Source: an uncultured Eubacteriales bacterium
Lineage (GTDB): Bacteria; Bacillota; Clostridia; Monoglobales; CAYZNM01
Assembly (NCBI GenBank): GCA_964479875.1
Contig: CAYZNM010000006.1
Span: 4,565 to 68,564, forward strand
Direction of reading: 5' to 3'
DNA: 64,000 nucleotides
Shown here: piece after piece, positions 15,169 through 63,686 of the stretch
Layout: each line of letters begins with the position of its first letter
How positions within the stretch are numbered: position 1 is the stretch's first letter
Translations under genes and position numbers: made by a program
The notes under the pieces: model-generated
The model's input: only the letters and a program-made list of their open reading frames with translations
Told to the model about the DNA's origin: nothing
The model's database searches: none

Positions 15169-15264
15169 TCACATAGTCAATCGCGTTTCTTTCCTCGACT
15201 ATAAAAGTACGACGAACGCTGCTCGAATCAAAGAAATGCGATTGACACGAATCACTGTTTTAAA
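15169..15264 (-). repeat. about 95-bp palindromic intergenic element, copy 1 (14-bp terminal inverted repeats GTCAATCGC(G/A)TTTC / GAAACGCGATTGAC)
   Basis: Hairpin core at 15176-15246 plus the flank ...CACTGTTTTAAA. On the minus strand it aligns with the copies at 58723-58817 and 60270-60364. It sits between alr and proA, and its end supplies the proA RBS context (GACTATGTGAGGTAAAAATATG). Confidence 0.8.
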
Positions 15265-58722: not shown

Positions 58723-58817
58723 TTTAAAACTGTCTGCTAGTCAATCGCGTTTCTTTGATTACATCTGCATTTATCGCACTTCTATTGTTATTGATTGAAA
58801 CGCGATTGACTATATTA
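58723..58817 (+). repeat. about 95-bp palindromic intergenic element, copy 2
   Basis: TTTAAAACTGTCTGCTA-GTCAATCGCGTTTCTTTGATT...TTGATTGAAACGCGATTGAC-TATATT. The 14-bp terminal inverted repeats are perfect and the interior diverges from the other copies. Confidence 0.8.
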
Positions 58818-60269: not shown

Positions 60270-60364
60270 TTTAAAACTGTGAGCAAGTCAATCGCGTTTC
60301 TTTGATTCTATCGGCGTTTATCAAACGAATATAGTCGAGGAATGAAACGCGATTGACTGTGTGA
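60270..60364 (+). repeat. about 95-bp palindromic intergenic element, copy 3
   Basis: TTTAAAACTGTGAGCAA-GTCAATCGCGTTTCTTTGATTC...GTCGAGGAATGAAACGCGATTGAC-TGTGTGA. Same orientation as copy 2. Very similar to the reverse complement of copy 1. Confidence 0.8.
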
Positions 60365-60489: not shown

Positions 60490-60528
60490 TAATCCATAAC
60501 AAGGGAATAATACAAATGAGGATTGCTT

Positions 60529-60876
60529 ATGTGGTCTGTGGAATACTATGAATTGGAAAACGGATATAAACCCGCATATGAGTTTATAAATGGGCTGTCC
60601 TCTAAAATGAGGGCAAAAGCTTTCAAGGAACTGGAAATACTGCAAGGGATGGGGAACCAACTTAGAGAACCATACTCTAAGCCTATTCAAGACGGCATAT
60701 TTGAGCTTAGAATAAAATTAGGAATTGATATTTCACGAGTGTTTTATTTCTTTTATGTTGGGAATAAAATCATTTTAACGAATGGTTTTATAAAGAAAAC
60801 ACAAAAAACGCCAAAAAATGAGATCGAAAAAGCTATGCGCTATAAACAAGATTATGACAGGAGGCAATCATTATGA
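60529..60876 (+). CDS. Gp49/HigB-like (DUF891) RelE-superfamily toxin
   Basis: WSVEYYELENGYKPAYEFINGLSSKMRAKAFKELEILQGMGNQLREPYSKPIQDGIFELRIK...RVFYFFYVGNKIILTNGFIKKTQKTP matches the phage Gp49 family pattern. Confidence 0.85.
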   Translation: MWSVEYYELENGYKPAYEFINGLSSKMRAKAFKELEILQGMGNQLREPYSKPIQDGIFELRIKLGIDISRVFYFFYVGNKIILTNGFIKKTQKTPKNEIEKAMRYKQDYDRRQSL

Positions 60877-61142
60877 CGCTGGAACAACATTTAGAGGAAC
60901 AACTGAAAAATCCTGAATTTGCAAAAGAGTATAAAGCCTTAGAATCCGAATACGAGATTATAAAACAAGTAATCATCGCCCGAAACGAATTAAATTTAAC
61001 TCAAAAAGAACTCGCCGAACGAACCGGAATCAAACAAAGCAACATCAGCCGCTTGGAGAGCGGCAATTACAATCCCTCGATAGGCTTCTTGAAGAAAATC
61101 GCCGAAGGGCTTGGAAAAGAATTGCATATAGAATTTAGGTAG
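60873..61142 (+). CDS. XRE-family HTH antitoxin (HigA-like)
   Basis: 89 aa. 4-nt overlap with the toxin stop. LNLTQKELAERTGIKQSNISRLESGNYNPSIGFLKKIAEGLG HTH. Confidence 0.85.
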   Translation: MTLEQHLEEQLKNPEFAKEYKALESEYEIIKQVIIARNELNLTQKELAERTGIKQSNISRLESGNYNPSIGFLKKIAEGLGKELHIEFR

Positions 61143-61177
61143 TGGCGGGGCTTTACTCCGCCCGTTTCTAAAATGTG

Positions 61178-62267: not shown

Positions 62268-62824
62268 TTAAGGGGGTATATACACTTTATTGAGAATATT
62301 TCGCTCTTTCTTTTTATCACTTCTCCATAGGACTATCCCTCCGTTAACAGTTCCGTAAAATCCAATATCGTATTTTGGATTTAAGGACTTGGGGATTAAA
62401 GATTTTGGCGAGATAACTCCGCTAGTCCCAGTATGTTTGCCCACTATTTCAATACTTCCTAACAAAGGACCACCACCGCCACCTATTGATACAGAAGTAT
62501 ATGATGGGTTCAAATAGTCATCTAGTGTCATATCCTCAAATTGACATATTGTGACGCCTGCAGAGCCTCCGACCCCCCTCCTATACTTCCGCCCAAAACC
62601 AATGCTGTGTTACCCTGACTATCTTTTACAAGTTGTATATTTCCTCCGCCATACACTCCAAGACCAACAGAAACTCCCAGCGAAACAACAGTCACTCTAT
62701 TAACATTTTCTGAGTTTTTGCCTGTGGGGTTATAGTTAGCATCAATGCCTTTGCCGAGCGCAGTTGTGATGTGTGCAGTTTCTTTTGCGCCGAATGTGCC
62801 TTTGAACAGTCCGCTGATTCCACC
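62268..62824 (-). pseudogene. start-less, frameshifted glycine-rich module (orphan C-terminal cassette?)
   Basis: The frame opens right after a TGA at 62825-62827 with no start codon: GGISGLFKGTFGAKETAH...LGGSIGGG. It shifts frame at a G6 run (C6 on the plus strand, 62573-62578) into VGGSAGVTICQFEDMTLDDY...KVYIPP (track ORF 62268-62531). One extra G restores a 185-codon frame. Confidence 0.6.
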
Positions 62825-62829
62825 TCACA

Positions 62830-63529
62830 TTATATCACCGGCTTTCTTAGAGTGTCAAGGAAGTTAGGGAACGAAATTACCTGTATTCCTGCGTCCTTGA
62901 TTGGGTCAAAAATGTAGTCGGGGGCTGTGCTGTAGACTACGATTGTTTCGGGGGAGATTGTTTCTGCCATTTTGTACAGCCCTCCTATGAAATAAAATAG
63001 GTTGGCTTTGTCACGCAAGCTGCCGTAGGTGCTTACAGCGACCGTGCAGCCCGTCAGGCACGCAGCTCGCCAGTGGCGAGCGGTTTTGCGTGCAGCCTTG
63101 GGGTATGCCCTCGAATGCAAAGGCGTAGGTGCGCTCGTCGCCCCAACGAATGTTGGGGATTACGTTTTGCCCTTTGCTTTGCAGCCAATATGCTAATACG
63201 CGGCTGCGATATGTGTTGTATATCTGCATAGCCAGCGGCATGTCGCGGTATAGGCTGAAGTCAGGCGATATTACGCCCTCGAATCGGCATAGCAAGTTTT
63301 CGTATTGCTTAGGTTTGTTCCACACGCACTCGAACTTGCAGTCGTGCAGGTAGAAGTGAATCCATTGCGCGAAATCCTGCGTGCGCGCCGCTCTGTCGAT
63401 GGGCAGCAGTCTGTTTGGGACTGCCGCGCACCTTTGCAGAATGGGAAATTCGTGCGTGTCACTGAATTGTGCGCCTTGCGTTAGCTCGGAATTAAATACG
63501 TTGTACGCTTTTTCTGCGATGTTTGTCAT
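62830..63529 (-). pseudogene. DUF4417-like gene disrupted by a 46-bp insertion
   Basis: ATG at 63529 (GGAGGT RBS). ...WIHFYLHDCKFECVWNKPKQYENLLCRFEGVISPDFSLYRDMPLAMQIYNTYRSRVLAYWLQSKGQNVIPNIRWGDE resembles DUF4417. The frame breaks at 63043-63097. Track ORFs 63011-63619 and 62830-63120 are the two halves, and removing 46 bp gives 654 nt in frame. Confidence 0.7.
63043..63097. mobile_element. 37-bp hairpin-containing insert flanked by 9-bp direct repeats (CGTGCAGCC) inside the DUF4417-like gene
   Basis: Direct repeats at 63043-63051 and 63089-63097. Insert 63052-63088 contains the perfect hairpin GCTCGCC-AGT-GGCGAGC (63065-63081). Its nature is unknown: a footprint or a miniature element. Confidence 0.45.
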
Positions 63530-63686
63530 TTGACCTCCGTTTCGTTTGATGTTGCTGTAATGTGATATATTATACCATAAATGTTGTAATTTGTCAACGT
63601 ATGTTCTGTTTTGTCGCATTGTGATTCACATGTTGATGGGTTTTATCGCACGAAAAAAGCCACACGTTTGTGCGGCTTGGGTGGTG

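What the first reader, a model, noticed from the sequence alone, without database searches (positions are those of the whole stretch)
62830..63529. DUF4417-like gene split by a 37-bp hairpin insert flanked by a 9-bp target-site-like duplication
The two overlapping track ORFs (63011-63619 and 62830-63120) are halves of one gene. On the minus strand the junction reads ...CCCCAA GGCTGCACG [CAAAACCGCTCGCCACTGGCGAGCTGCGTGCCTGACG] GGCTGCACG GTCGCT....

Deleting one repeat copy plus the 37-bp insert (46 bp in total) restores ...FEGIPQGCTVAVSTYGSLRDK... and a 654-nt (218-codon) frame.

The insert contains a perfect 7-bp-stem hairpin (GCTCGCC-ACT-GGCGAGC). A 9-bp direct duplication is the hallmark of transposition-type insertion, yet 37 bp is far smaller than any IS or typical MITE. 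It could be an excision footprint or an unusually tiny mobile hairpin.
Basis: seen in the sequence. Interest (0 to 1): 0.55.

Follow-up and report, generated by a model that had tools for sequence, protein, structure and literature searches.

The report
DUF4417 gene broken by hairpin insertion
A gene of unknown function in an uncultured spore-forming gut-type bacterium is split by a real 46-base insertion that carries a strong hairpin and a 9-base duplication; it is most likely an ordinary one-off mutation scar that inactivates the gene, not a new mobile element or a ribosome-hopping signal.

Summary
On the minus strand a DUF4417 gene (ATG 63529, stop 62830) is interrupted after codon 147 by 37 nt flanked by two exact GGCTGCACG copies. 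Removing 46 nt gives a 217-aa protein that matches Pfam DUF4417 end to end (E 7e-56) and aligns to about 50 homologues with no gap.

Logan assemblies of four sequencing runs contain the insert and its right junction. They all stop 3 nt inside the first repeat, so only the source contig shows the left junction.

The hairpin is larger than described: 36 nt, 14 bp with a 5-nt bulge, RNA dG -22.7 kcal/mol, z -5.2. It uses 5 nt of the first repeat. Read antisense, it looks like an intrinsic terminator.

I found no second copy in the 64-kb window, viral contigs, GTDB genomes, JGI metagenomes, plasmids or phages. No other family member carries such an insert. It fails the gene-60 bypass criteria: no stop or rare codon after take-off, and a GC-rich gap. 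It also has no terminal inverted repeats.

Best reading: a recent, non-programmed insertion scar that frameshifts the gene. Its origin is unresolved (break repair or template switch that captured a terminator-like hairpin, or a transposon footprint). Low interest.

The parts
63569..63597 (-). Consensus sigma-70 promoter (TTGACA, 17 nt, TG-TATAAT; 12 of 12 matches) upstream of the DUF4417 gene
   Evidence: sequence read
63534..63538 (-). GGAGG ribosome-binding site 4 nt upstream of the ATG at 63529
   Evidence: sequence read
63089..63529 (-). N-terminal part of DUF4417, codons 1-147, ending ...EGIPQGCT. In frame 0 it runs on through the insert to a TGA at 63013-63011, giving the 172-aa product annotated at NCBI (P0001).
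63089..63097 (-). First copy of the 9-bp direct repeat GGCTGCACG (codons Gly145-Cys146-Thr147)
63052..63088 (-). 37-nt insert CAAAACCGCTCGCCACTGGCGAGCTGCGTGCCTGACG. It is 68% GC in a 50% GC gene and unique in the window.
63058..63093 (-). 36-nt hairpin GCACGCA-AAACC-GCTCGCC-ACT-GGCGAGC-TGCGTGC: 14 bp with a 5-nt bulge. The 5' arm starts inside the first repeat. On the + strand it reads as a terminator-like stem-loop followed by GGTTTTG.
63043..63051 (-). Second copy of the 9-bp direct repeat GGCTGCACG
62830..63051 (-). C-terminal part of DUF4417 in the +1 frame (GCTVAVSTYGSLRDK...RKPVI, then stop). It keeps every invariant family residue (G154, L169, P178, Y184, P188).

Best explanation
This is a real, recent, one-off 46-bp insertion mutation in a chromosomal accessory-island copy of a DUF4417 gene, in an uncultured sporulating Firmicute.

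Shown:
- The insertion duplicates 9 bp of the target and places 37 nt of GC-rich, compositionally foreign DNA between the copies. This DNA forms a hairpin and reads like a terminator on the antisense strand.
- It shifts the reading frame by +1 at the start of a core beta-strand.
- Standard translation therefore gives a 147-aa N-terminal fragment with a 25-aa nonsense tail, and the C-terminal 70 residues are not made.

Inferred:
- The gene is a young pseudogene. Promoter, RBS and all invariant residues are still intact only because too little time has passed for decay.
- The most likely origin is repair of a break, or a replication template switch, that copied or captured a terminator-type hairpin from elsewhere. 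The 9-bp duplication would come from fill-in of a staggered break or from re-annealing 9 nt upstream.
- Part of the palindrome (TGCGTGC against GCACGCA) is complementary to target-derived bases. Fold-back or strand-switch synthesis would produce exactly that.
- The two direct repeats with a hairpin between them make precise loss of the 46 bp by replication slippage plausible, so the knockout could revert.
For: - The frame break and its exact repair are shown.
- Homologues are always a single uninterrupted gene: about 120 proteins and 25 viral loci.
- The junction lies at the start of core strand E147-150 of a confident model (pLDDT 88), so truncation removes part of the fold.
- The insert is present in independent read-based assemblies from four runs.
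- It is unique. There is no second copy or donor of 11 nt or more in 64 kb. It is the only one of 17 GC-rich hairpins in the window with a flanking direct repeat of 9 nt or more. Five public collections give nothing beyond chance.
- The insert is 68% GC against 50% for the gene.
- The antisense strand gives a terminator-like call.
- The hairpin stem recruits 5 target-derived bases.
- The C-terminal half is no more diverged than expected for the family (0.43 against 0.45) and keeps all invariant residues. This fits a recent event.
- NCBI's annotators also called two separate ORFs, P0001 (172 aa) and P0122 (46 aa).
Against: - No intact allele and no close orthologue (more than 60% identity) was found, so 'recent' is inferred only from the lack of decay.
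- The same lack of decay, together with perfect expression signals, would also be seen if the gene were still expressed through some recoding.
- No donor for the 37 nt was found.
- Local fold-back copying does not explain 17 nt at the 5' end and 6 nt at the 3' end of the insert.
- All four Logan samples break at exactly 63094/63095, which hints at heterogeneity or a second context that I could not see.
- The protein search index demonstrably misses short and cut products, so absences in it are weak evidence.
Confidence: 0.62

Rival explanations
1. Footprint of a transposable element that makes 9-bp target duplications. An IS or transposon inserted here and most of it was later lost by slippage between short repeats near its inverted ends.
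For: There is an exact 9-bp duplication bracketing a short palindromic sequence. The insert is compositionally foreign. The gene lies in an accessory island with a toxin-antitoxin pair and orphan-looking ORFs.
Against: The outer ends of the 37-mer are not inverted repeats of each other. Only an internal 7-mer is, and in different register (7 nt from one end, 13 nt from the other; sequence). The lower stem uses target-derived bases. No parent IS, and no sequence similar to the remnant, was found in the window, plasmids or phages.
Confidence: 0.15
2. A very small non-autonomous mobile hairpin element (REP-, MITE- or mitochondrial GC-cluster-like) of about 37-46 nt that transposes with a 9-bp target duplication.
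For: It has a strong hairpin (z -5.2), is GC-rich relative to its host gene and has a target-site-like duplication. Logan contigs from four samples all start 3 nt into the first repeat. This would follow if the 30-mer TGCACGCAAAACCGCTCGCCACTGGCGAGC also occurs in another context in those samples (my inference from k=31 graph logic).
Against: The window holds no other copy, even with 3 mismatches, and no other hairpin with a comparable flanking repeat. Scans of viral, GTDB and JGI collections with a 23-mer and a 21-mer gave only chance hits with unrelated flanks in high-GC genomes. There are no terminal inverted repeats and no REP-type GTAG head. The recurrent Logan breaks also occur at two other strong inverted repeats (58743 and 60289/60310), so they may only reflect trouble with hairpins in short-read data.
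Confidence: 0.1
3. Programmed translational bypassing. The ribosome takes off at one of the GGC/TGC/ACG codons, slides over 46 nt and lands on the matching codon, producing full-length DUF4417. This would resemble T4 gene 60 or the mitochondrial byps of Magnusiomyces.
For: The take-off and landing triplets match (three consecutive codons), the gap is 46 nt, and a stable stem-loop has the take-off codons in its 5' arm. GGG lies 4 nt 5' of the ACG landing codon. The unbypassed product is truncated. The gene keeps a perfect promoter, RBS and all invariant residues.
Against: - The codon after take-off is CAA, the preferred Gln codon here (48 against 27). TGC and ACG are also common, so there is no stop or hungry codon. 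The conserved gene-60 cassettes have one.
- The gap is 68% GC, not AU-rich.
- The loop is ACU, not a UUCG or GNRA tetraloop.
- The upstream peptide is just the conserved DUF4417 core, with no added nascent-peptide signal.
- No homing-endonuclease element is adjacent.
- There is no second instance in about 120 homologues and 25 viral loci.
- Matched codons follow automatically from any target duplication.
Confidence: 0.04
4. Assembly or population artefact. The left junction (N-terminal half joined to the insert) does not exist in any single genome and was created when the MAG assembler resolved a branch.
For: No retrievable Logan contig from the four samples crosses 63094/63095. The N-terminal ORF product P0001 is recorded only from the NCBI contig.
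Against: A misjoin would not be expected to place the N-terminal half of a gene next to the C-terminal half of the same gene, in order, in orientation, and with an exact 9-bp overlap duplication. The insert, the second repeat and 6 nt of the first repeat are in the independent assemblies. Cut gene products are poorly represented in the searchable collections, so the missing left contig is weak evidence.
Confidence: 0.05

Closest known systems
Tn10 'nearly precise excision' remnant (50-bp palindromic remnant between the 9-bp target duplication)
   Same: A short hairpin-forming sequence is bracketed by an exact 9-bp direct duplication inside a gene. It is expected to be lost precisely by slippage between the repeats.
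   Different: Here the ends of the insert are not inverted repeats of each other, no parent element is known, and part of the stem is target-derived.
T4 gene 60 bypass cassette (50-nt coding gap) and its homologues
   Same: [quoted passage not shown]
   Different: There is no stop or rare codon after take-off, the gap is GC-rich instead of AU-rich, and there is no stable tetraloop. There is also no dedicated nascent-peptide extension, no MobA homing-endonuclease element, and no conservation in any relative.
Mitochondrial 'byps' of Magnusiomyces capitatus (81 short inserts in coding sequence that are translationally bypassed)
   Same: Short, structure-forming inserts that disrupt the frame of otherwise intact genes.
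   Different: Byps are many per genome and rely on an unused codon in the A site and on relaxed mitochondrial decoding. Here there is one copy, a normal A-site codon and a bacterial ribosome.
REP elements and small MITEs of bacteria
   Same: Similar size range (REPs are about 20-40 nt) and palindromic, GC-rich character.
   Different: REPs and MITEs are multicopy and mostly intergenic. REPs make no target duplication and carry a conserved head motif, and MITEs have terminal inverted repeats. None of these holds here. This genome does carry a multicopy palindromic family (73 nt, 3 copies), but it is unrelated in sequence.
Rickettsia palindromic elements (RPE) inside protein-coding genes
   Same: A palindromic insert inside a coding sequence.
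   Different: RPEs are 100-150 nt, multicopy, inserted in frame and translated (my own knowledge). This insert is 46 nt, single, and breaks the frame.

Membership tests
DUF4417 (PF14386) protein family (host gene) | Full-length match to the Pfam profile above the gathering score | tested here: met
   The repaired protein scores 189.1 bits against a cut-off of 28.9, over profile 4-176 of 183. It also matches PHROG 8680 and the C-terminal part of PHROG 940.
Gene-60-type translational bypass cassette | [quoted passage not shown] | tested here: met
   GGC TGC ACG occurs at 63097-63089 and again at 63051-63043, 46 nt apart. This follows trivially from any 9-bp duplication.
Gene-60-type translational bypass cassette | [quoted passage not shown] | tested here: not met
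   The next codon is CAA, the preferred Gln codon in eight housekeeping genes of the window (48 against 27 for CAG). TGC (34 against 11) and ACG (35 of 157 Thr codons) are not rare either.
Gene-60-type translational bypass cassette | [quoted passage not shown] | tested here: inconclusive
   The 14-bp bulged stem includes TGC ACG in its 5' arm (dG -22.7, z -5.2). The loop, however, is the triloop ACU, not UUCG or GNRA.
Gene-60-type translational bypass cassette | Mini Shine-Dalgarno a few nt 5' of the landing codon, within AU-rich sequence | tested here: not met
Gene-60-type translational bypass cassette | Conservation of the cassette in relatives and association with a homing-endonuclease element | tested here: not met
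   No other interrupted member was found among the 120 listed homologues and 25 viral loci. The two truncated homologues have other causes. The neighbours are small unknown ORFs.
Gene-60-type translational bypass cassette | Joined protein product is actually made | not testable with these tools
   This needs proteomics, a reporter assay or ribosome profiling.
MITE / IS-derived miniature element | Terminal inverted repeats at the outer ends | tested here: not met
   The left end is CAAAACCGCTCGCC. The reverse complement of the right end is CGTCAGGCACGCAGCTCGCC. Only the internal 7-mer is shared, and out of register (sequence).
MITE / IS-derived miniature element | Target-site duplication | tested here: met
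   Exact 9-bp GGCTGCACG on both sides.
MITE / IS-derived miniature element | Multiple copies in the genome or in relatives | tested here: not met
   There is one copy in 64 kb at up to 3 mismatches and none in five public collections. The rest of this genome could not be searched.
REP (RAYT-mobilised) elements | Multicopy, extragenic, no target duplication | tested here: not met
   This is a single copy, intragenic, with a 9-bp duplication.
Transposon excision footprint (Tn10-remnant type) | Remnant made of the two ends of an identifiable parent element | tested here: inconclusive
   No parent was found in the window, plasmids or phages. ISfinder and the rest of the genome were not available.

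The most novel reading that the evidence does not exclude
The 46-nt hairpin insert is a bacterial counterpart of the mitochondrial byps. [quoted passage not shown] Ribosomes would then hop over it, and the DUF4417 protein would still be made from a chromosomal bacterial gene.
Probability: 0.03. Interest if true: 0.85.

Novelty: new member of a known kind. Interest (0 to 1): 0.22.

Why it matters
As it stands this is mainly an annotation point. The two ORFs (172 aa and 46 aa in the NCBI record) should be one frameshifted DUF4417 pseudogene.

The scar is tidy and could be a small case study of how short palindromic filler DNA gets into bacterial genes. It could also serve as a hairpin-plus-direct-repeat substrate for slippage reversion.

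It would matter much more if the joined protein were made. Natural long-distance translational bypassing in a bacterial chromosomal gene is essentially undocumented outside phage T4 relatives. The evidence here argues against that.

Tried and rejected
1. **Second copies of the insert.** I tried the full 37-mer, the 17-nt hairpin core with 3 mismatches, and k-mers down to 10 nt in the window. I scanned viral, GTDB and JGI collections with a 23-mer and a 21-mer, and ran BLAST of the 55-mer against plasmids and phages. Only chance hits in high-GC genomes turned up, with unrelated flanks.
2. **Rfam scan of 58-64 kb** at E up to 1: nothing.
3. **Close orthologues with or without the insert.** The nearest intact homologue is 59% identical. 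The exact repaired protein is not in the 15-billion collection, although that index misses short and cut products.
4. **Truncated homologues as parallel cases.** L015 is a frameshift in an A-run at another position. L014 loses homology about 6 codons after our junction to an orphan Ntox50 toxin module. Neither has a hairpin insert.
5. **Chimera test.** I compared the nearest relatives of the N-terminal and C-terminal halves. rho is 0.035 against 0.70 for intact members. After removing close relatives, the controls give 0.36 +/- 0.24 and 4% fall lower. This is inconclusive.
6. **Insert-present/insert-absent polymorphism as the cause of the Logan break.** Rejected by graph logic: that would break the contig at 63051, not 63094.
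7. **Tandem duplication of adjacent sequence.** The insert does not resemble the neighbouring 46 nt, apart from a short GCAGCTTGCGTG-like stretch.
8. **Programmed +1 frameshift.** It would put 15 unrelated residues into a core strand, and there is no slippery motif.
9. **Sequencing-adapter origin.** The insert does not resemble common Illumina, PacBio or Nanopore adapters (from memory).
10. **Function of DUF4417.** No NCBIfam or PADLOC hit and no significant PDB fold match (best E 0.015, TM 0.45). The literature only notes fusions to ParB-CTPase domains in phages.

Full report
**1. The observation.**
Read on the minus strand, a gene starts at ATG 63529. It sits behind a 12/12 consensus promoter (TTGACA, 17 nt, TG-TATAAT, 63597-63569) and a GGAGG ribosome-binding site.

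After codon 147 the sequence reads GGCTGCACG | CAAAACCGCTCGCCACTGGCGAGCTGCGTGCCTGACG | GGCTGCACG | GTCGCT. Frame 0 runs on for 25 codons to a TGA at 63013-63011. The rest of the protein lies in the +1 frame, down to the stop at 62830.

Removing one repeat plus the 37 nt (46 nt in all) gives a 217-aa protein.
- It matches Pfam DUF4417 in one stretch (profile 4-176 of 183, E 6.8e-56).
- The halves match profile 4-128 and 125-179.
- Thirteen and then fifty aligned homologues read ...EGIEQGGTVAVST... through the junction with no gap, and every invariant residue of the C-terminal part is kept.

A 9-bp direct repeat within 60 nt is common in this window: 49 cases against about 11 simulated. The repeat is therefore meaningful only because it coincides exactly with the frame break.

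**2. The hairpin is larger than reported.**
The 7-bp stem is the top of a 36-nt stem-loop, GCACGCA-AAACC-GCTCGCC-ACT-GGCGAGC-TGCGTGC (63093-63058).
- It has 14 bp and a 5-nt bulge.
- RNA dG is -22.7 kcal/mol, z -5.2, and none of 200 shuffles folds as well.
- As DNA, dG is -15.6 kcal/mol and z is -5.6.
- The repaired junction without the insert has no unusual structure (z -0.46).

Five bases of the lower stem (GCACG) belong to the first 'target' repeat. On the + strand the same sequence is called as an intrinsic-terminator-like site: stem-loop followed by GGTTTTG. The insert is 68% GC in a 50% GC gene.

**3. Is it real?**
The source is a 159.5-kb NCBI contig. NCBI annotates the two pieces as separate proteins, P0001 (172 aa) and P0122 (46 aa).

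Logan assemblies of four runs (SRR10912415-18) carry the same organism at 100% identity. Two of their contigs contain TGCACG + insert + second repeat + C-terminal half + the downstream genes. The insert and its right junction are therefore independent of the MAG assembler.

All four samples start these contigs at the same base, 63094. That is 3 nt into the first repeat and 1 nt before the foot of the hairpin. No contig I could retrieve spans the left junction.

A simple insert-present/absent polymorphism would break the graph at 63051 instead. The break therefore has another cause. I see three possibilities:
- another context sharing the first 30 nt;
- strain divergence beginning at 63095;
- hairpin-linked trouble in the short-read data.

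The other recurrent breaks (58743 and 60289/60310) also lie at strong inverted repeats. That favours the last, least interesting, reading, but I cannot decide among them.

A misassembly is unlikely. It would have to place the two halves of one gene in order, in orientation, and with an exact 9-bp duplication.

**4. Is it a family?**
- In the window there is no other copy of the insert or its core at up to 3 mismatches, and no shared k-mer of 11 nt or more.
- Of 17 GC-rich 7-bp hairpins in the window, this is the only one with a flanking direct repeat of 9 nt or more.
- Exact-pattern scans of IMG/VR, GTDB representative genomes and JGI metagenomes found nothing with a 23-mer. A 21-mer gave seven hits in high-GC organisms, with background-level identity in the flanks.
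- BLAST of the 55-mer against plasmids and phages gave only E >= 0.3.
- Rfam finds nothing in 58-64 kb.

Within the DUF4417 family, the nearest intact relative is 59% identical and 25 viral loci are uninterrupted. The two truncated homologues I examined are broken differently: an A-run frameshift, and replacement of the C-terminus by an orphan Ntox50 module.

The ends of the 37-mer are not inverted repeats of each other.

**5. What it does.**
An AlphaFold model of the repaired protein is confident (pLDDT 88.4, pTM 0.86). It puts residues 145-147 at the start of core strand 147-150. The frameshift removes a strand and the following helix-strand units, which should inactivate the protein.

The C-terminal half is no more diverged from relatives than is normal for the family (0.43 against 0.45), and the expression signals are perfect. 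So the event is either recent or tolerated.

A test for a chimeric origin of the two halves was inconclusive.

**6. Recoding?**
I compared the site with the conserved features of gene-60-type bypass cassettes (Manning and Atkins, bioRxiv 10.1101/2022.08.31.505936) and with the mitochondrial byps (Atkins et al. 2016, PMC5009743).

Matched codons, gap length and a take-off stem-loop are present, but matched codons follow from any target duplication. Several features fail:
- The A-site codon after take-off is CAA, the preferred Gln codon.
- The gap is GC-rich.
- The loop is not a stable tetraloop.
- The upstream peptide is just the conserved family core.
- No relative shares the feature.

I put bypassing at about 4%. 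A +1 frameshift would insert 15 unrelated residues into a core strand, and I put it below 1%.

**7. Best explanation and origin.**
I conclude that this is a one-off insertion scar that knocks out the gene (confidence about 0.6).

For the origin I favour break repair or a replication template switch that copied a terminator-type hairpin. Two observations support this:
- Part of the palindrome is complementary to target-derived bases.
- The piece looks like an intergenic terminator.

A footprint of an IS with 9-bp duplications (about 0.15) and a genuinely mobile mini-hairpin (about 0.1) remain open. The direct repeats with a hairpin between them should favour precise loss by slippage.

**8. Host gene and context.**
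DUF4417 has no NCBIfam or PADLOC match and no significant PDB fold relative. In phages it is often fused to ParB-CTPase domains.

The gene lies in a low-GC accessory block (about 60.3-64 kb). The block also holds a Gp49/HTH toxin-antitoxin pair and small unknown ORFs. It sits next to the cdaA-ybbR-glmM core genes of a sporulating Firmicute that encodes SASP and YunB.

**9. Verdict.**
The feature is real and was correctly described, but it is ordinary in kind: a young frameshifted pseudogene with an unusually tidy scar. The novel readings are not excluded, but nothing I could test supports them. Interest is low.

Noticed in passing
window 15175-15247, 58739-58811, 60286-60358: There are three copies of a roughly 73-nt palindromic repeat. 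The arms AGTCAATCGCGTTTC / GAAACGCGATTGACT are 15 bp and perfect, around a variable centre of about 43 nt. Two copies flank the Se_S_carrier + cysteine desulfurase operon. There is no Rfam match, and the sequence is unrelated to the DUF4417 insert. It could be a REP/MITE-like family or a regulatory site.
   Followed up: partly
window 58743, 60289/60310, 63094 (Logan loci L001-L006): Contigs assembled independently from four sequencing runs break at identical bases, and each break is at the foot of a strong inverted repeat. Either these hairpins are repeated or variable in the population, or they systematically disturb short-read assembly.
   Followed up: partly
L014 (JGI Ga0131853_10282620) 214-946: A DUF4417 homologue (P0107) loses homology about 6 codons after the position of our junction and is followed by an orphan Ntox50 toxin module and a small ORF. 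This suggests that polymorphic-toxin cassettes recombine next to or into DUF4417 genes.
   Followed up: partly
L015 (ENA k141_97639) 780-950: Another DUF4417 homologue (P0110) is split by a frameshift in a run of A's (…CAAAAAAATTAG…). This is either a sequencing error or a natural homopolymer frameshift.
   Followed up: partly
window 62829-62858 (minus strand): A second perfect 12/12 sigma-70 promoter (TTGACA, 18 nt, TG-TATAAT) overlaps the last codons of the DUF4417 gene and points at the downstream small ORFs.
   Followed up: no
window 62528-62826 (minus strand): The reading frame of the 55-aa glycine-rich ORF stays open for about 43 more codons upstream (GGISGLFKGTFGAKETAHITTALGKG...) with no start codon. 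It begins right after the DUF4417 stop. It may be a start-less orphan module. The next ORF (87 aa) is also glycine-rich and overlaps it by ATGA.
   Followed up: no
window 60523-61150: A Gp49-like (HigB-type) toxin gene lies next to an HTH_3 antitoxin gene, at the inner edge of the low-GC block that contains the DUF4417 gene.
   Followed up: no
tool behaviour: The word-indexed protein search returned nothing for queries whose exact sequence, or a 46-aa part of it, is known to be in the collection. Absence of short or contig-cut products there is therefore not evidence of absence.
   Followed up: yes
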